Shown: piece after piece, positions 1 to 7,680 of the stretch
Layout: the number at the start of each line of letters is the position of its first letter
How positions within the stretch are numbered: position 1 is the first letter of the stretch
Assembly: GCF_009914755.1 (NCBI RefSeq)
Contig: NC_060932.1
DNA length: 64,000 nucleotides
From: the human T2T-CHM13v2.0 reference genome, Homo sapiens
Direction: 5' to 3' (one strand)
Translations under genes and position numbers: made by a program
Notes under the pieces: model-generated
Seen by the model: the letters and a program-made list of their open reading frames with translations, nothing else
What the model was told of the DNA's origin: nothing
Databases searched by the model: none

Positions 1-308
1 CAGAGTGGGACTCCATCTCAAAAAGAAAAAAAAAATACCTATGAAAAACAAAGACAACTTTTTAAAAACCTACTCTTTATCAAACATACATACCTAGGAA
101 TTTATCGTAAGGATAAAATTTAACAGAATTGAAAAGATAAGTGTGGCAATGTTAACTTGTTAACTATACTCTTATTTGTAAGAATAAAAACAAACAATAA
201 CAAAAGAAACTATGCATCAACTTGGAGGAGAATTCCGTGGCTTATAAAAATGATATCCCAAAAAACATAGAAAAATATTTATGATTACATATCAAATGAA
301 AATAGCAG

Positions 309-780
<472 letters not shown>

Positions 781-2035
781 AGAGAAAATAAGAGAATACA
801 AAATAACATTAGTAGTATAGCATGTTGGGTCAAAAACAGATTTTTGGAATATGACAATCCTGATCCAAATCACATTTAGTTACTTAGGAACTATGTGACT
901 TTGGGCATGTTCCTTATCCTTACTAAGGCTCTGTTTTCTCATTTGTAAACTAAGAATACCAATAGCACTAATTCTATCACATAGGAACAATGCTTTTGTT
1001 AACTGGAATTCACATTTAAAAATTTTATCGGAATGCCCCCATTAAAAATATTCATTTGAAAGTCATTTACACTCAAAAATTTCACCTTCTTTGCAACATA
1101 CTTTATATCTTAGATTTAAATTTCCATGTTCATCATGAAATAACTGACAGAATCTACTGCTGTGTTGTCAAATGTTTTGCAGAACTCGATAACTCTACAC
1201 TCTTCACAGTGAATAAGCCTTAAAAATTAAAACTAAGCAACTGAAAATAGAGTGCTAGTTATTTAAGGAAGTTATGGCTCTCATTGTTTTTTTCTTCCAT
1301 TGCATTCATGGCTCAACATCAAAGCCATTTATCTTATGAAAGGACTTCAATAAAGTTTCATTAGAAAACTTAATTAAGAGAAGTTGAAATATTAACAGAG
1401 TAGAAAAGAAGGAAATAATGATCAATCACATAAAATAGGAAAAGAAAGCAAAATTAGTGAAAAAGTACTTGTACAGAGAACAGATGAAATGGGTTAATGA
1501 AATGGAATAATAAATCTGTGTATAACTTTCACAGATGGCTATGATTCCAGATATGATATCTACATGCAGCATTTAGTATACTTGATAGTTTCTTTTTAAC
1601 TCACTCAGCAATTGTAAATCTATAAAATTTAGAAATGCTGAGATAATATGACTTGCTGTTTCTGGCTCATGGATTTGTCACTCAAGGCTGTGATACAAAA
1701 CACATTATCAAGCTCACCAGGCTGCCTCTTTCATTCAGTGGAAGAGGGCTGTAAAGGATACCATATTTGCCTACAAATGTTAACTAGCTCATTTGCTCCT
1801 GCATCATTGGCAGCACTTCATGAATGTCATAAATACCAACAGGCATTTCTATTGCCTCTTTTATAATAAGTTTATTGAGATATTTATACTTTTCTACCTA
1901 GAGATGTTTTTGATTATCATCAGTGCTACAAATTGGGATAACTGCAGTAGTAGATCCCAAGAGATTTCTATCCTGATAATTGGGGGTGGGAGTAGATGTG
2001 TTTCTTAGTTGGAAGGCACAGTTAAAAGTAATTTT

Positions 2036-2172
2036 AGTGGGCACAGTGCATCCACCTATAGTCTCAGTCACTCAGCAGGCTGAGCTGGGAGGATCGCTTT
2101 AGCCCAGGAGTTTGAGCCCAGCCTGGGTAACACAATGAGACCCCATCTCAAAAAATGATAATAAATAAATAA
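2036..2172 (+). mobile_element. Alu monomer (FLAM-like)
   Basis: ggaggatcgctttagcccaggagtttgagcccagcctggg + A-rich tail. Confidence 0.85.
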
Positions 2173-2583
2173 TAATTTTAGTTTCCCATTCACTTGATGC
2201 TTTTCATGATCAAGCGAAGGTTGGGCTAAAGATTCCAGTATTAGGAGGTTCCCAAAGACAGTTGAGAGTTGTATTTTCACGGGATCAATTTTCCTGGGGC
2301 TTAGGGCGATCTTAAAAGTCACAATCAGCTCTGAATTTGTTGCTACACAAGCAAAACTAAACTTATAAATCTGGACCCATTGCTATATATCACCTACATA
2401 ACAAGATGGGGCCATGCAGTGGAGTAGAATAAGGTGACCATAACGGAAGAAGCTGTAAACATCTTACACTGGAAAAATAGTGGAATAAAGAGCAGTGTCA
2501 GAGAAAATAGGCCATGTGGTAGCTCCAACATTTATGTAATCATTTATTTTGCTTCCTTGTATCCCTAGCTAAGCCTCTTCTTC

Positions 2584-2586
<3 letters not shown>

Positions 2587-2620
<34 letters not shown>
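2587..2620. repeat. (TG)17 microsatellite
   Basis: Perfect TG run. Confidence 0.99.
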
Positions 2621-2624
<4 letters not shown>

Positions 2625-3324
2625 GTTGTGTATCCTCTTCCTGATAAGATTCCCTCTTTACACCGGTACAATCAACTCCTTAATTGGAATTAGAATTTCT
2701 CTGTCTGGAATTTATACATATATCTTAGGATTGTATTTACCAGTAAAAAAAGCCCTTCAAGTTTACAAAGACTATATGGTAAGAAATCTAAGCTTAATTT
2801 TCCTTTCATTGCACTACTTGACTTACAACAGTAACCATGCAAATGGATTTATGCTTCAATGTGTAAAATGAAAGGACTTTCCTCCTTCACTTCGCACATG
2901 TACACATACACATCTGAAGGCATTTAGCAATGTGTCCAGCACAAAACAGACACTTAATTAATGTTACTTTCTGTTTCCTTTTGAAGAACAGTGTGTTAGC
3001 CACCTACACAACACATTAAGGAATTAATGGGCAAAGCAAAAGGCCAAGAGAGAATAGCTCAGTAGTTAGAAATATGAGCTTCGGTATCAGACCGGATTTT
3101 GAATTCTGGCCTTACCATTTAGCAGCTCTCTGTCCTTAGAAAGATCACTTAAACTCTGATTCTCAGTTTCCTCTGGTACAAAGTGAGGATAATACTACTT
3201 AGGCCATAGAATGTTTGTTAAAAGTAACAAGCTATTGCATGCATGCAACACACAAAGCACAGTTCCTAGAATATAATATGTACTCAATTATGAAAAGAAT
3301 TTTAATTTCTTTTTAAAACGGCAT

Positions 3325-4090
3325 ACCCACTAATCATTAGAGTAAAACACAAATCAAAACCACAATGAGATGTCACCTCATACCCATTAGGATGGCCACT
3401 ATCAACAAACCAGAAAATAACAAGTATTGGTGAGGATGAGGAGACATTTGAGTCTTTGTGTACCGCTGGTAGAAATGTAAAATGGTGTAGCTGCTCTTGA
3501 AAACAGCATGATTCCTCAAAAAACTAAAGACAGAATTACCATGTGAGGTAGCATCCCACTTCTGGGTATAAATACAAAAGAATATAAAGCAAGAGCGCAA
3601 AGAGGTATTTGTACACCTATATTCAATGCATCATTATTCACAAGAGCCAAGATGTGGAAGTAGCCTGAAATTCCGTTTATAAATGAATGGATAAAGGAAA
3701 CGTGTCATATACATATTTAGCCTTTTAAAAAAGAAGAAAATTTTGTTATATGCTACAACATCGATGAACCTTGAAGACATTATGCTTAGTAAAATAAGCC
3801 AGTCACAGAGGAACAAATACTGTATAATTCCACTTATGTAGAGCTATGTAGAGTAGGGGAAACCACGGAAACAGAAAGTAGAATGGTGGTTTCCAGGAGC
3901 TAAGGGGAGGGTGAAATGGGAGTTGTTATTTGATGGGCAAAGGATTTCGGTTTTGCAAGATGAAAAAGTTCTAGAGATCTGTTACCCAATAATGTGGATA
4001 CAGTTAACACTATTGTAATAGTGCACTTAAAAATGGTTAAGAGTATAAATTTATATTATGAGTTTTTCACCACAATTTTATCAAAAAAAA
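3325..4090 (+). mobile_element. L1MB-type LINE-1 3' end
   Basis: aaatcaaaaccacaatgagatgtcacctcatacccattaggatgg...; 3' UTR gatgaaaaagttctagagatct...cacttaaaatggttaag; A tail. Confidence 0.9.
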
Positions 4091-4484
4091 TAGGGCATAC
4101 TGAAAAAAAAAAAGTGCATCTTTAAGGATGTTCTCTCTAGCTCTTCTCCAACGCCAGAATACAGAATGAGGAGGAGAAAGGAGACATGAAAATAAAGAAA
4201 GTCAAAAACCATTTTTACCGTTCTTAAATTATGTTTATGGGATTCCTTCAGGTTAATGAGGAAAGAAAAATCTGTGTAACTGACAGCAAAAGCTAATTCG
4301 AAGCATCCTTTCTCCCTCAGCTTTGGGAATACTCAAAAGAGGGGACTAGAAATCACCCATTATAGATAAGAAAAGTCTGCGAATGTATTTATACAAATGC
4401 TTTGCCTTTGAATTGGAAGTAAGAATAGTTAAAAGAGAGGAAACAAAACTTTGAAAGGGAGGGAAGGAAGAAGGCACTGTAGAA

Positions 4485-4640
4485 AAATCTTACAGTTTGG
4501 AGTCAAGATGAGGAGTTTGAATCCTCTTTCTACTTGGTTATCCTCTCTGTGGATGACTTTGTCAGTAAAAATGGTGATGTTCATACTTTCTAACAGAGGT
4601 GTTGTGAGAACTAACTCAAGATATTATGTTTGAAATGTTC
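4485..4640 (+). mobile_element. MIR fragment
   Basis: tttggagtcaagatg...gtttgaatcct...agaggtgttgtgagaactaa resembles the MIR core. Confidence 0.6.
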
Positions 4641-5487
4641 TTTTCATCTCATGAAACATAATCCACATTTTACTTGTGATTTTACAGACGGCAAACAGTA
4701 GCTAATTACCACCCCAAGGAAAAACAGTAAGTAATTTCTACCTTCCTGCTCACGGGGCTGTAATCATTTATATTTTGACACTTGTTGCTAGTCTTGTTAA
4801 TGAATGTCAATATTAATTCAGTATGGGAAAGTGTGGGAAATTTCTATCTTCAAAGTGAAAATGTGACAACATACCCCCTGGGCATTAAAGGAAATAAAGC
4901 ATTCTTACTAAAACAAGGAAGAAATTTAATGTTTCTTAAGGGCAAATAAGTATCTCAAATCATAGCTCAAGAATGTGACTCTATTCATGGTTCTCCCTTT
5001 TTCTACAGATAATCTAAAATATTTACAAAAGGTAATAACCAAATTCACTTCCAAAGACAAAGGAGGGAATTTCACCATGAAAGAGAGGAAATGAAAGAAT
5101 TTTTGAACAATGAGGCTGATAGAACTATGGATTTTTTCCAAAAAGGAAATAATTAAATTTTTTTCCTTGGGGTTTTTAATTAAAGGTCCTCCACATCCTA
5201 AAGTATGATGGGGGTAATGTCCGTCGGAATACCTCTTGGAGTTAGTTCACAATACTGAGAATTAATGTTTCCTAAAATTGTGTTTCAGTAATGCTGCTTT
5301 CTATGTTTTCTTTTTTCTTGTATGTTGTAGCTTCAACAACAAAATACACTTAGTGGCTTTACTACTCTTGACTAACAGATTTGGGTGTTGAACAAGAAAA
5401 AACAGAAGAAAAATCTAAGTAGAACTCACTGGATATTAACAACCATGTGCCATTTTCTAAAATAGCTCAGACTTGTCTATAGCCTTG

Positions 5488-5650
5488 TTTCTTTTGTTTT
5501 GTTTTGTTCTCGCTCTGTCGCCCAGGCTGGGGTGCAATGGCACCATCTCAGCTCACAGCAGCCTTGGCCTCCTGGGTTCAGGCTCAGGTGATCCGCCCAC
5601 CTCAGCCTCCTGAAGGGCTGGGATTACAAGCATGAGCCACCATGCCCAGC
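5488..5650 (-). mobile_element. Alu monomer/truncated AluJ
   Basis: T-rich tail followed by ctcgctctgtcgcccaggctgg...atgagccaccatgcccagc. Confidence 0.9.
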
Positions 5651-5717
5651 TATAGTCTTGTTTCTTGATCAGTTTTGTTTGTTGGTTTGTTTTATTGGCA
5701 AAGAGAACTCATCAGAT

Positions 5718-5720
<3 letters not shown>

Positions 5721-5767
<47 letters not shown>
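5721..5767. repeat. (GT)23 microsatellite
   Basis: Perfect GT run. Confidence 0.99.
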
Positions 5768-5768
<1 letters not shown>

Positions 5769-7680
5769 TAACCCTTTCTCTGCTGGAGTTGGTTTACTTT
5801 ACTACTGAAATTTTTAAAATATTTGATTAAATATTTTATATTAATATTTATTTTTGCTTTATTTTAACATGAAAATTCAACCAGTATAATTTGGGTGGGG
5901 GGGAGGTGCATACTTAATATTAAAAGCACTCGCTTATGATCTTAATGAGTTCATTAAAGGAAAGTTATTAAGTAATATTACCATAGTAAAAGTAAAGTAA
6001 GTAAATGAAAGTTCAGCTCTATCTTCCAGTGGTTATTGCTTTTATTAGCTCACAATGAACCAACATTAGCTTCTTTTGCTAGTGTCTCTGAATACTAACA
6101 GTAAAGCAGTTCTGCTGGTTTCCACTTCACTGATCTACTCTTGATTTACATCAACGGTGAACCTTTCACTTAGTTACCTCTTTAGACTTGCTTTCCACAC
6201 ATCCTGTTTATGTGCAGTCAGCAGGAAGAAAACAAGAATGTGGATATGAGCAGGAAGAGAAAGATGAAGAAATAAAATGCTTTCAGAAAAGTAGAAATTT
6301 CTATGAAAGTCCCCAGCATATTTTTTTTAAACACTGGAAACGGTCTTTGTGAATCATCCAATCTGACTGTTTGTTAGCTGTCATCCAGCAAATCCTTGAA
6401 GATGAGGAACTTGAACGTTTAAATAGAAGTCGATGACACATTCTTTGTCATGTTTTCCTATTTCTCTAACTAAAACAAGAGTTTGCCATGGAGATGTTCT
6501 TGAATTAGGCTTCACATCTGTGGCATTATGGTTTACAGAAATAAACCAGACTCCCTAGAATTGGAGTCTGGATTCTAGCTAGACATGACTGTCCAGTGAT
6601 GTGACCTTGGGCAATTTTCCTTAATTCACAAGGCCTTACGTACCCTCTGGAGTTACCTAAAATCTCTACCTTTAGAGATTAAGGGATATTGAATTTCACA
6701 AGAATTCATAAACCCATAAACAAGAATTCCAGAGATGAAGGCATCAGATTGATTGCCCTATTGGATCAGGAAGAGGCAGAAAGCTCCACCATGAGGTGTG
6801 GGAATAAAGAGCAGATACAGTTGATTGAGGTTGAGCGTGTCAATGAAAGCAGAAATGTGGTGGGGTATCCTGGCATCTGTATACTGCTCTTCTTTACCCC
6901 AAGGACATTCACGGTTGGCTGAGATGCCTGGGAGTGACATGGCTTGAGAGCAGGTTTTTGAAGGATGAAAAGAGGATATTTGCCTAAAAGTGTCACCAGG
7001 AAGCAAAGAGAAAGCCATTGTCCTTGTACTTGGCAATAAAGTTCAAGAGTAAGACTATATCTGAGATTGCAAAGAAAGAATAGCAGGTTAAATATGGAGG
7101 CATGGACAACATTATAAAAAGTGTATCTTTGTTCAAGTAACACATACTCATTGTTGAAAAGTTAAAAGGTACAGATAATCACAAAATAAACTCACTACAG
7201 ATAAGTGCAGAAAAAATAAGCACTGTGAACATTTTGCTGCACATCATTGCAGGCTTTTCATAGATAAACCTTCTGCAGGTGTAAAAAGTATCAGATTCAA
7301 ATATCTGTGGGTTGTGCTTGCTAGACAACTCTTAAGCTGTGTATTGTTAAAATAAACCTTATATAATGTATTGTAGCTTATTGTGAAAGGGTCAAGAAAT
7401 CAAGATAGCTGTTTCTCTTATTTCCATTAAAAATCTATTCATTTCATGTTAGGAGGACAGTTAACTTGTTACCAAGCAGAACTGTATTTAAAACAAATTC
7501 GAAAACTATTCATAACCTATATGTATTTAGTCCTGGTTAGACATAAAGCTTCACAGTGCTGTTTTATGCATCACATTAACCAGCTATAAAACACACAGGA
7601 CTTTATCTATAGCAGACAGAGAATTTCAGGATTTATATACAGATACCCTACAAAGTCATGTGATTTTAAAATCAGTGTTT

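What the first reader, a model, noticed from the sequence alone, without database searches (positions are those of the whole stretch)
1193..6436. Candidate lost gene: decayed multi-exon, multi-RGS-domain-like locus on the + strand
Seen: non-repeat islands between repeats have splice-site borders and K/E/Q-rich frames broken only by isolated stops or frameshifts. Seen translations: SYLRKLWLSLFFSSIAF (1257-1307); LEMLR*YDLLFLAHG (1629-1673); QQAF/YCLFYNKFIEIFILFYLEM (1837-1906, one frameshift); ASFLPQLWEYSKE..IRKVCECIYTNAL (4303-4404); EEMKEFLNNEADRTMDFFQK (5085-5144); NFYESPQHIFF..IIQSDCLL (6296-6376). Established: RGS domains carry AFxEFLxxEFSEENIxFWLxCExYK, KAxxIYxxF/YI, EVNID and FDEAQxHIFxLMExDSYPRFLxS. 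The 1837-1906 segment keeps the AF(x7)FxExxILF[WY]L spacing exactly. Inference: relic of a gene with several RGS-like domains (architecture like RGS22/RGSL1/AKAP10), inactivated long ago and possibly intact in other vertebrates. The motif matching was done by eye and is prone to over-fitting.
Basis: partly seen in the sequence, partly recalled or inferred. Interest (0 to 1): 0.85.

Follow-up and report, generated by a model that had tools for sequence, protein, structure and literature searches.

The report
Dead amino-acid transporter gene, not RGS
The flagged stretch holds no trace of an RGS gene, but it does contain the last two exons of a long-dead, apparently unannotated relative of the y+LAT amino-acid transporters SLC7A6 and SLC7A7, whose other exons lie just upstream of the window.

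Summary
None is RGS-like by any test: Pfam PF00615 on six read-through frames and on each island, PDB sequence searches of all six frames, and a whole-genome PF00615 scan all gave nothing here. Open-frame lengths in 1193-6436 match shuffled sequence.

The same searches found a different lost gene. Window 2569-2778 and 5331-5422 (+) are the last two exons of a non-processed pseudogene of the SLC7 light-chain family, closest to y+LAT1 and y+LAT2. Four more exons lie collinear on the + strand upstream of the window, giving a span of about 20.8 kb (chr8:90,938,646-90,959,422).

Five exons score E 1e-8 to 1e-12 against y+LAT proteins. Five of the six keep canonical splice signals at SLC7A6/7 exon borders. 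The gene carries at least 7 frameshifts, 6 in-frame stops and a (GT)17 expansion, and three middle exons are undetectable.

Trees and shared residues place it, with moderate support, with two unnamed intact proteins outside the y+LAT1+2 clade. That suggests a third, ancient paralogue lost in our lineage. RefSeq lists no gene here, and I found no paper describing it.

The parts
1..2568 (+). The part of relic intron 7 that lies inside the window.

Four further exons of the same gene lie upstream, outside the window, on the + strand:
- Exon 1: chr8:90,938,646-90,939,091 (window -15354..-14909). 6 frameshifts and 1 stop. The Cys aligned with the heavy-chain-linking Cys is kept. The start codon was not identified.
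- Exon 2: chr8:90,940,511-90,940,625 (window -13489..-13375). Donor AAAG|GTAAGA. No visible AG acceptor.
- Exon 6: chr8:90,949,750-90,949,846 (window -4250..-4154). AG| and |GTAAGT. 1 TGA.
- Exon 7: chr8:90,953,405-90,953,552 (window -595..-448). AG| and |GTAGGT. 2 stops.

Exons 3-5 were not found.
   Evidence: Upstream exons: genome search; tblastn; frameshift-aware alignment (exon 1 has 74 of 145 identical residues); flanks read.

PDB phmmer and tblastn scores:
- Exon 1: y+LAT2 E 2.3e-9.
- Exon 2: P0025 E 1e-9.
- Exon 6: y+LAT2 E 4.3e-9.
- Exon 7: y+LAT1 E 9e-12.

Intron content: no protein or Pfam hit for the islands. Alu evidence.
2569..2778 (+). Relic exon 8, encoding the last transmembrane helix. 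Acceptor ttgcttccttgtatccctAG|, donor ATG|GTAAGA. A (GT)17 microsatellite at 2588-2621 adds about 9 codons. There is one frameshift in the A7 run at 2745-2751.
   Evidence: PDB phmmer: y+LAT2 E 2e-8, y+LAT1 E 1.2e-6. tblastn E 1e-10 to 1e-12. The borders match the true SLC7A6 exon as seen in read-through protein P0006. DP alignment.
2779..5330 (+). Intron 8 of the relic. It holds an L1 3' end (3328-4113).
   Evidence: L1 ORF2p C-terminus read through stops and a frameshift, E 4e-18. At least 40 genomic copies at 70-75% identity were scored.
5331..5422 (+). Relic exon 9, the last coding exon (C-terminal tail). Acceptor ttttcttttttcttgtatgttgtAG|. In-frame stops TAG 5351-5353 and TGA 5369-5371. 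The terminal TAG at 5420-5422 falls at the same alignment position as the stops of P0025 and lizard y+LAT2.
   Evidence: tblastn against the 21-kb locus: P0025 E 0.003, P0122 E 0.086, mammalian y+LAT2 E 0.31. Tail alignment.
5423..6436 (+). 3' flank of the relic. That island lies inside the RefSeq-annotated enhancer 6293-6392.
   Evidence: Alu. No coding signal. The enhancer is from the hub annotation only.

Best explanation
The interval is the 3' end of a dead, intron-containing (non-processed) gene of the SLC7 family of heteromeric amino-acid-transporter light chains, of the y+LAT type (relatives SLC7A6/y+LAT2 and SLC7A7/y+LAT1).

Shown. Six recognisable exons lie in protein order on the + strand over about 20.8 kb between RIPK2 and OSGIN2. 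The last two lie inside the flagged interval, at 2569-2778 and 5331-5422. The exon borders coincide with those of SLC7A6/7, and five of the six keep canonical splice signals. The reading frame is destroyed: at least 7 frameshifts, 6 in-frame stops, a (GT)17 expansion inside exon 8, and exons 3-5 undetectable. It therefore encodes nothing today. The rest of 1193-6436 is its introns 7 and 8 and its 3' flank, filled with L1 and Alu, and it has no RGS content.

Inferred. The ancestral product was a 12-helix exchanger disulfide-linked to the 4F2hc/SLC3A2 heavy chain; the aligned Cys is still there. With about 60-65% probability, the gene was a third, ancient y+LAT-type paralogue. On that reading it is still intact in other organisms (unnamed proteins P0025 and P0122), not a late copy of SLC7A6 or SLC7A7. 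It was probably inactivated on the order of 100 million years ago.
For: (1) Independent exon hits. PDB sequence searches put y+LAT1/2 first for each exon tested, 100 to 1e9 times better in E-value than LAT1, LAT2, xCT, b0,+AT or Asc-1: exon 1 E 2.3e-9, exon 6 E 4.3e-9, exon 7 E 9e-12, exon 8 E 2e-8. Exon 2 scores E 1e-9 and exon 9 E 0.003 against P0025.

(2) Collinearity. A six-frame search of the whole genome with lizard y+LAT2 gave 7 matches on chr8:90,938,670-90,956,754, all on the + strand and in query order.

(3) Gene structure. Exon 8 starts at LSLFF and ends 12 residues after YLP, as in a read-through of a real SLC7A6 locus (P0006). Acceptor and donor sequences were read directly.

(4) Decay. 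Exon 1 has 6 frameshifts and 1 stop. Exons 6, 7 and 9 have 1, 2 and 2 stops, and exon 8 has 1 frameshift.

(5) Neutral drift. An orthologous ORF from an unnamed contig (P0004) differs from human by 8 of 56 residues in exon 8, 9 of 63 in flanking intron 7 and 3 of 30 in flanking intron 8.

(6) Third lineage. Over 295 columns the relic is equidistant from y+LAT1 (57.6%) and y+LAT2 (56.9% human, 56.8% fish, 59.2% lizard), and 43% identical to LAT1/2. ML trees join it to P0025: 96/88 under LG+G4 with 28 rows, and 72/83 under LG+C20 with 20 rows. With P0122 this group sits outside y+LAT1+2. With two sequences per group, the relic shares 14.1 states uniquely with P0025/P0122, 4.8 with y+LAT2 and 4.3 with y+LAT1. 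Its 42-residue tail has the same length to the stop as P0025 and matches it at 19 of 42 positions (my count by eye on the alignment, with V read at the break the alignment writes as X). By the same count it matches P0122 at 16 of 42 and lizard y+LAT2 at 14 of 42.
Against: Exons 3-5 (about 125 codons) were not found.

Single relic exons give no Pfam AA_permease_2 hit. Family assignment therefore rests on pairwise and phmmer homology.

The third-lineage placement is only moderately supported. The mixture-model bootstrap is 72. AU tests do not reject the relic as sister of mammalian SLC7A6 (delta lnL 19.1, p 0.054) or as a member of the y+LAT2 clade (delta lnL 10.2, p 0.17). The relic is a long branch (0.57-0.76), and P0025 and P0122 cover only about half of the columns.

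The organisms of P0025 and P0122 are unknown, and no synteny could be checked.

The exon alignments were anchored on a y+LAT2 sequence.

I cannot exclude that GENCODE or another catalogue already lists this pseudogene.
Confidence: 0.9

Rival explanations
1. One reading: a relic of a gene with several RGS-like domains (architecture like RGS22, RGSL1 or AKAP10).
For: The six translations are real. One of them fits a hand-written RGS spacing pattern that occurs in 0 of 300 shuffles, but that pattern was derived from the match itself.
Against: PF00615 gives nothing at E<=10 in 6 of 6 read-through frames and 9 of 9 island peptides. No RGS chain appears among the PDB hits of any of six frames. The same searches recovered a decayed L1 ORF2 and the SLC7 exon through stops and frameshifts, so the method works here. 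The genome-wide PF00615 scan found 57 matches, exon by exon, in known RGS loci and none within chr8:90.9 Mb. Open-frame lengths equal chance. All six islands lie in introns or the 3' flank of a different gene relic.
Confidence: 0.01
2. A duplicated pseudogene: a DNA-level copy of SLC7A6 (or SLC7A7) that landed on chr8 in a mammalian or earlier tetrapod ancestor. It either was never functional for long or decayed since. On this reading it is not an ancient third paralogue.
For: AU tests do not reject the relic as sister to mammalian SLC7A6 (p 0.054) or inside the y+LAT2 clade (p 0.17). Exons 6 and 8 score slightly better with y+LAT2 than with y+LAT1. Long-branch effects could pull a decayed sequence toward the base of the y+LAT clade.
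Against: The relic is no closer to human SLC7A6 (56.9%) than to SLC7A7 (57.6%) or fish y+LAT2 (56.8%), although those are about 80% identical to each other. The best trees under two models put it with P0025/P0122. There are three times more uniquely shared states with that pair. Exon 2 and the C-terminal tail match P0025 clearly better (tail alignment). From recall and not tested: 8q21 and 16q22-24 form a known whole-genome-duplication paralogon (OSGIN2/OSGIN1, CALB1/CALB2, WWP1/WWP2, ATP6V0D2/ATP6V0D1). That predicts an SLC7A6 ohnologue at exactly this place.
Confidence: 0.25
3. A processed (retrotransposed) SLC7A6/7 pseudogene, or chance similarity in ordinary intergenic DNA.
For: A processed pseudogene (COX6B1P6) and many retroelements lie in the same interval (hub annotation).
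Against: The homologous pieces are separated by 1.3-9 kb. They are bounded by AG/GT at the parental exon borders, which a cDNA copy would lack. Five separate pieces each reach E<=1e-8.
Confidence: 0.01

Closest known systems
SLC7A6 (y+LAT2) and SLC7A7 (y+LAT1), light chains of the 4F2hc-linked system y+L exchangers
   Same: They are the best sequence match for every exon tested. Identity is 57-59% over 295 aligned columns. The exon borders are the same where they could be compared. The Cys that aligns with the heavy-chain-linking Cys is retained (the role of that Cys is recalled).
   Different: The relic has no open frame: at least 7 frameshifts, 6 stops, and 3 exons missing. It is equidistant from both proteins and falls outside their joint clade in the best trees. 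It lies on chr8, whereas they lie on chr16 and chr14.
Unnamed intact proteins P0025 (424 aa) and P0122 (241 aa) from the representative library. Possibly the same kind of gene as the uncharacterised zebrafish SLC7A6-like gene si:dkeyp-120h9.1 (chr19), listed in Table 2 of PMC8478756 (passages read).
   Same: They are the nearest rows in all three trees. The C-terminal tail has the same length and matches at 19 of 42 and 16 of 42 positions (my count by eye on the alignment). The exon 2 motif ISVG.Y is shared. Both are AA_permease_2 proteins.
   Different: They are open reading frames. Their organism and genomic neighbourhood are unknown. Any link to the zebrafish gene is a guess from its name and was not tested.
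SLC7A15P (arpAT), the known human unitary pseudogene of the SLC7 family
   Same: It is the same kind of event: an SLC7 light-chain gene dead in humans. It is listed at chr2 in Zhang et al. 2010 (PMC2864566, passages) and was seen here as stop-bearing matches at chr2:20.42 Mb.
   Different: It is at a different locus and in a different subfamily. The chr8:90.9 Mb relic is not in that paper's main-text table.
RGS-domain proteins (PF00615; RGS22, RGSL1, AKAP10)
   Same: Nothing beyond a hand-fitted nine-position pattern in one frameshifted peptide.
   Different: There is no profile or pairwise similarity at E<=10.

Membership tests
RGS domain (Pfam PF00615) | A match to the RGS profile (about 117 positions, nine-helix bundle) | tested here: not met
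   0 hits at E<=10 in 6 of 6 read-through frames of 1000-6700 and in 9 of 9 island peptides. 0 of 57 genome-wide PF00615 matches lie in chr8:90.9 Mb.
RGS domain (Pfam PF00615) | Pairwise similarity to any solved RGS-domain protein | tested here: not met
   No RGS chain among the PDB phmmer hits of the three + frames (E<=10) or the three - frames (E<=1).
SLC7 light chains of heteromeric amino-acid transporters, y+LAT type | Significant sequence homology to y+LAT1/2 over several independent exons, in protein order on one strand | tested here: met
   Exons 1, 6, 7 and 8: E 2e-8 to 9e-12, with y+LAT1/2 ranked first. Exon 2 E 1e-9 and exon 9 E 0.003. Collinear + strand matches.
SLC7 light chains of heteromeric amino-acid transporters, y+LAT type | Pfam AA_permease_2 (PF13520) profile match | tested here: inconclusive
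   Single exon fragments of 33-180 residues give no hit. The model has 427 positions, and the frame is broken within exon 1. The nearest intact relatives P0025 and P0122 do match (E 3e-42 and 1.5e-18).
SLC7 light chains of heteromeric amino-acid transporters, y+LAT type | Exon-intron structure shared with SLC7A6/7 | tested here: met
   Exon 8 starts and ends where the SLC7A6 exon does (P0006 read-through). Exon 6 ends at LLFN|GT and exon 7 at ..PIK|GT. Acceptor AG is seen for exons 6-9. Exon 2 lacks a visible AG.
SLC7 light chains of heteromeric amino-acid transporters, y+LAT type | Cysteine in the loop after helix 3 that forms the disulfide with the heavy chain | tested here: met
   The relic reads APL*PDCESPY opposite y+LAT2 PSFPTCDPPY. 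That this Cys is the linking one is recalled. PMC8478756 describes the equivalent Cys for SLC7A9.
Functional gene | An uninterrupted reading frame and a full exon set | tested here: not met
   At least 7 frameshifts, 6 in-frame stops and a (GT)17 insertion. Exons 3-5 were not found.
Unitary pseudogene | No functional copy of the same gene in this genome, and a functional orthologue at the syntenic place in other species | not testable with these tools
   The other y+LAT-type matches in the genome search were read (by recalled chromosomal position) as SLC7A6 and SLC7A7. No vertebrate genomes are held here, so synteny could not be checked. The tree placement with intact P0025/P0122 is suggestive only.

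The most novel reading that the evidence does not exclude
Humans carry the fossil of a third y+LAT-type amino-acid exchanger light chain. It would be an ohnologue of SLC7A6/SLC7A7, sitting in the 8q21 counterpart of the 16q22 SLC7A6 neighbourhood. It was functional for hundreds of millions of years and is still intact in other vertebrates. It was lost before the primate radiation and has not been annotated or described as a human gene loss.
Probability: 0.5. Interest if true: 0.55.

Novelty: new member of a known kind. Interest (0 to 1): 0.45.

Why it matters
For the scan, this shows that by-eye motif matching in AT-rich DNA produced a confident but wrong family call. Read-through six-frame searches against solved structures were still able to pull a genuine gene fossil out of the same interval.

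For biology, system y+L transport (SLC7A6 and SLC7A7; SLC7A7 is recalled as the lysinuric protein intolerance gene) is treated in the sources I saw as a two-gene system in humans. A third, lost paralogue would change the family's evolutionary picture. It would also give a name and a human counterpart to uncharacterised 'SLC7A6-like' genes in other vertebrates. And it would add one more dated loss of a nutrient transporter to the short list of human unitary pseudogenes, alongside SLC7A15P.

It has no direct medical meaning. The locus encodes nothing today.

Tried and rejected
Word-indexed protein searches with exon 7 and exon 6 returned nothing (22 and 44 candidates, none scored).

Pfam on single relic exons gave no hit.

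The search for exons 3-5 between exon 2 and exon 6 used four y+LAT queries and then P0025 and P0122. It gave only weak candidates:
- -12499..-12446 (FNSSGLDQFEKITETMLN, E 2.8) is left as possible.
- -13337..-13257 looks like low-complexity ININY repeats, read by eye.
- -10805..-10719 I read from recall as L1 ORF2-like text.

Window 325-381 ([20 protein letters not shown] about 10) resembled the end of exon 7 but lies in an Alu.

The - strand hit to the 4F2hc heavy chain (E 4.6e-6) falls on the Alu-like piece at about 2027-2155. I read it as Alu-derived exon text in that protein (recalled), not as a transporter partner gene.

The weak RIPK2 kinase hit (E 0.39) and the YiaAB hit (E 2.9) are treated as chance.

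The representative-library search found no protein clearly closer to the relic than the y+LATs by single-exon score. Clusters there are at 50% identity, so paralogues may be merged.

Library representatives were used as outgroups instead.

The first careful tree run gave no answer. It was repeated.

Literature searches found nothing on this locus: 'SLC7A6 + pseudogene + 8q21' (0 papers), 'y+LAT3' (0), 'slc7a6 + slc7a7 + ohnolog' (0). Two broader searches and 'unitary pseudogene + SLC7A' (5 papers) also described nothing here.

The upstream exons are now described inside the first part and in the text.

Full report
**1. The observation**

The window is human chr8 (T2T) 90,954,001-91,018,000. 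The 1837-1906 string needs base 1849 to be skipped. Its second half is the frame-2 text seen.

The strings are therefore real, but the claim that they stand out from chance does not hold.
- In 1193-6436 the three + frames give a longest stop-free run of 100 codons. 64 of 300 dinucleotide-preserving shuffles reach that.
- There are 24 runs of 40 codons or more (shuffle mean 20.4; 55 of 300 reach 24) and 5 runs of 60 or more (152 of 300).
- AG occurs 371 times and GT 296 times in 5244 bases. Any short block will therefore have 'splice-like' borders.
- The AF-x7-F-x-E-xx-I-x-F-[WY]-L pattern is found once in the window and in 0 of 300 shuffles. It was written from the match, with a frameshift placed at will, so that count is circular.

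**2. The RGS interpretation**

I translated all six frames of 1000-6700 with stops read as X and scanned Pfam at E<=10. There was no PF00615. The only hit was YiaAB at E 2.9. Nine peptides covering the islands gave 0 families (one of them, 1202-1360, was in the wrong frame for the first island, which one search covers).

phmmer against all PDB chain sequences gave no RGS protein for the three + frames at E<=10 or the three - frames at E<=1.

The method demonstrably reads through decay in this very interval. It recovered the C-terminus of L1 ORF2p at about 3340-3840 across stops and a frameshift (E 4e-18 and 7e-9).

A six-frame scan of the whole genome with PF00615 returned 57 exon-wise matches, which by recalled position lie in known RGS loci (for example chr8:54.33 Mb). 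None lies near chr8:90.9 Mb.

**3. What turned up instead**

In frame 1 the PDB search also hit y+LAT2 (SLC7A6) and y+LAT1 (SLC7A7) at window 2614-2754. Searched alone, the 100-codon ORF 2569-2871 gives y+LAT2 E 2e-8 and y+LAT1 E 1.2e-6.

The sequence has the anatomy of an exon.
- The acceptor is ttgcttccttgtatccctAG, directly before 2569.
- The donor is ATG|GTAAGA, after 2778.
- A word-indexed protein search returned vertebrate y+LAT2 proteins. It also returned P0006, a read-through of a genuine SLC7A6 locus. In P0006 the homologous exon begins at the same LSLFF and ends 12 residues after YLP, as here.
- A (GT)17 microsatellite (2588-2621) sits inside the exon and adds about nine codons.

tblastn of six y+LAT2 proteins against the whole 64-kb window found one further piece, weak but correctly placed: 5312-5416 against the last exon of lizard y+LAT2.

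**4. The whole gene**

The genome is searchable. A six-frame search with P0014 (lizard y+LAT2) gave seven matches on chr8:90,938,670-90,956,754. All are on the + strand and in query order. It also gave exon sets that I read, from their chromosomal positions (recalled), as SLC7A5-11 and SLC7A13.

I fetched chr8:90,924,001-90,954,000 and aligned it with frameshift-aware dynamic programming. Flanks were read. The exons are listed below in window coordinates. Negative values lie upstream of the window, and chr8 position = 90,954,000 + window position.

| Exon | Window coordinates | Lesions and borders | Best score |
|---|---|---|---|
| 1 | -15354..-14909 | 6 frameshifts, 1 stop; 74 of 145 identical to y+LAT2 | PDB E 2.3e-9 |
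| 2 | -13489..-13375 | Donor AAAG\|GTAAGA; no visible AG acceptor | E 1e-9 vs P0025 |
| 6 | -4250..-4154 | AG\| and \|GTAAGT; 1 TGA | E 4.3e-9 |
| 7 | -595..-448 | AG\| and \|GTAGGT; 2 stops | E 9e-12 |
| 8 | 2569-2778 | (GT)17 expansion; 1 frameshift in the A7 run 2745-2751 | E 2e-8 |
| 9 | 5331-5422 | Strong acceptor; stops at 5351 and 5369 | E 0.003 vs P0025 |

Correcting the exon 8 frameshift restores the phase-1 junction needed by exon 9. The terminal TAG of exon 9 (5420-5422) falls at the same alignment position as the stops of P0025 and lizard y+LAT2.

Exons 3-5 (y+LAT2 residues about 215-338) were not found. The processed pseudogene COX6B1P6 (hub annotation, -7302..-7014) lies in that gap.

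In every PDB search, y+LAT1/2 outrank LAT1, LAT2, xCT, b0,+AT and Asc-1 by at least two orders of magnitude in E-value.

The pieces are separated by introns and bounded by splice signals. It is therefore not a processed pseudogene.

The hub's RefSeq table lists no gene between RIPK2 and COX6B1P6, or between COX6B1P6 and the lncRNA at 60 kb.

**5.

- 1193-2568 is the 3' part of intron 7. It holds islands 1-3 and an Alu-like piece at 2031-2156.
- 2569-2778 is exon 8.
- 2779-5330 is intron 8. It holds an L1 3' end at 3328-4113: at least 40 copies at 70-75% identity were scored out of 19,110 first-look candidates. It also holds islands 4 and 5, and what look by eye like two MIR copies (recalled consensus, not tested).
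- 5331-5422 is exon 9.
- The remainder is 3' flank. It holds an Alu piece at 5483-5653, a second (GT)n, and the RefSeq enhancer at 6293-6392, which covers island 6.

**6. Is it evolving neutrally?**

P0004 is an ORF from an unnamed contig that reads across the orthologous exon 8 and its flanks. It differs from the human conceptual translation at 9 of 63 positions in intron 7, 8 of 56 in exon 8 (microsatellite excluded), and 3 of 30 in intron 8. The exon shows no extra constraint.

**7. Which gene was it?**

Over the 295 columns where the relic has a residue, its identities are:
- 57.6% to human SLC7A7;
- 56.9% to human SLC7A6;
- 56.8% to fish y+LAT2 and 59.2% to lizard y+LAT2;
- 43% to LAT1 and LAT2.

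In the same columns the y+LAT1 and y+LAT2 sequences are about 80% identical to each other. A late copy of SLC7A6 or SLC7A7 should be clearly nearer to its source.

An exhaustive search of the 50%-cluster library with a y+LAT2 protein gave 150 representatives. Two partial ones stand out. P0025 and P0122 are about 70% identical to both y+LAT1 and y+LAT2. They resemble the relic best in exon 2 (50 bits against 37-38) and in the C-terminal tail. By my own count on the alignment, the tail matches at 19 of 42 and 16 of 42 positions, against 14 of 42 for lizard y+LAT2. That count was made by eye, not by a script, and reads V at the exon 8 frameshift, where the alignment itself has X.

I built a 325-column matrix: 283 anchored columns plus 42 tail columns. 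It had 34 rows: 22 y+LAT-like, 11 outgroups, and the relic. Rows were picked from about 160 proteins by identity and coverage.

| Model | Rows | Relic+P0025 | Plus P0122 | y+LAT1+2 excluding them |
|---|---|---|---|---|
| LG+G4, quick | 34 | SH-aLRT 87 | 86 | 92 |
| LG+G4, careful | 28 (6 gappy or long rows dropped) | 96/88 | 56/85 | 88/91 |
| LG+C20 mixture | 20 | 72/83 | 71/83 | 78/88 |

With two sequences per group, the relic shares 14.1 states uniquely with P0025/P0122, against 4.8 with y+LAT2 and 4.3 with y+LAT1.

Against this, AU tests do not reject the alternatives.
- Relic as sister to mammalian SLC7A6: delta lnL 19.1, p 0.054.
- Relic inside the y+LAT2 clade: delta lnL 10.2, p 0.17.

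The membership of the y+LAT2 clade was fixed after seeing the tree. The relic is a long branch. I therefore put about 60-65% on an ancient third lineage.

Two leads point the same way.
- From recall and not tested: 8q21 and 16q22-24 are whole-genome-duplication counterparts (OSGIN2/OSGIN1, CALB1/CALB2, WWP1/WWP2, ATP6V0D2/ATP6V0D1, E2F5/E2F4). An SLC7A6 ohnologue next to OSGIN2 would therefore be expected.
- Zebrafish is reported to have an uncharacterised second SLC7A6-like gene, si:dkeyp-120h9.1, on chr19 (PMC8478756, Table 2, passages read). I could not test whether it belongs to this lineage.

**8. Age (inference)**

There are six stops in about 330 recognisable codons and seven frameshifts in about 1.1 kb of exon. 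The terminal branch is about 0.35-0.5 longer than that of P0025. All of this suggests roughly 0.15-0.2 neutral substitutions per site, which is on the order of 100 million years. This is a rough figure.

It fits with the absence of the locus from the main-text table of 76 human unitary pseudogenes defined against mouse genes. That table lists Slc7a15 on chr2 and no chr8:90 Mb entry (PMC2864566, passages). The absence would be expected if mouse also lacks the gene.

**9. Mechanism**

Today there is none: the locus cannot encode a protein. The ancestral product would have been a 12-helix APC-fold exchanger. It would have been linked to 4F2hc through the Cys retained in exon 1 (PDC opposite PTC). 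It probably carried cationic and neutral amino acids, like system y+L. This is inferred from family membership only.

**10. Prior knowledge**

Seven full-text searches found no description of an SLC7 relic at this locus or of a third y+LAT. GENCODE and pseudogene catalogues could not be consulted, and bioRxiv supplements are closed. 'Not in print' is therefore limited to those searches.

**11. Verdict**

The RGS finding is an artefact of by-eye matching. The interval nevertheless belongs to a genuine lost gene of another family, apparently unannotated in RefSeq. That makes it a new member of a known kind, of moderate interest.

Noticed in passing
G000 chr8:85,525,277-85,525,465 (+), outside the window: A weak SLC7-like fragment with one in-frame TGA (E 0.006, 37% over 63 residues). 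It might be the human remnant of mouse Slc7a12 (Asc-2), whose neighbourhood I recall as RALYL-LRRCC1. Not examined.
   Followed up: no
G000 chr10:104,703,045-104,703,299 (-), outside the window: An SLC7-like match without stops inside a 183-codon open frame (E 0.057, 36% over 86 residues). Its origin is unknown and it may be chance.
   Followed up: no
window about 2027-2155 (- strand): The read-through translation hits the N-terminal region of the 4F2hc/SLC3A2 heavy chain (E 4.6e-6). The DNA is an Alu-like fragment. I read the hit as Alu-derived exon text in that isoform (recalled). It is a coincidence and not a partner gene.
   Followed up: partly
It lies about 0.9 kb downstream of the relic's stop codon. 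By eye it contains TTCTATGAA, a TTCN3GAA (STAT-type) word; the motif is recalled.
   Followed up: no
window 2588-2621 and 5725-5768: Two (GT)n microsatellites. The first expanded inside relic exon 8. Read as CVCVCV, such repeats also pulled in unrelated proteins in the word-indexed search.
   Followed up: partly
proteins P0009-P0013: Several database 'Y+L amino acid transporter 2' isoforms of carnivores end in intron read-through text with CVCVCV instead of the normal last exon. These are likely gene-model artefacts.
   Followed up: no
window 378-494 and 512-663 (+): Two adjacent SRP-related (Alu) hits below the Rfam gathering score. One mimicked the end of relic exon 7 in tblastn (window 325-381).
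   Followed up: yes
chr8:90,946,698-90,946,986 (-), 7 kb upstream of the window: The processed pseudogene COX6B1P6 (hub annotation) lies in the stretch where relic exons 3-5 should be. Whether its insertion or a deletion removed them is unknown.
   Followed up: no
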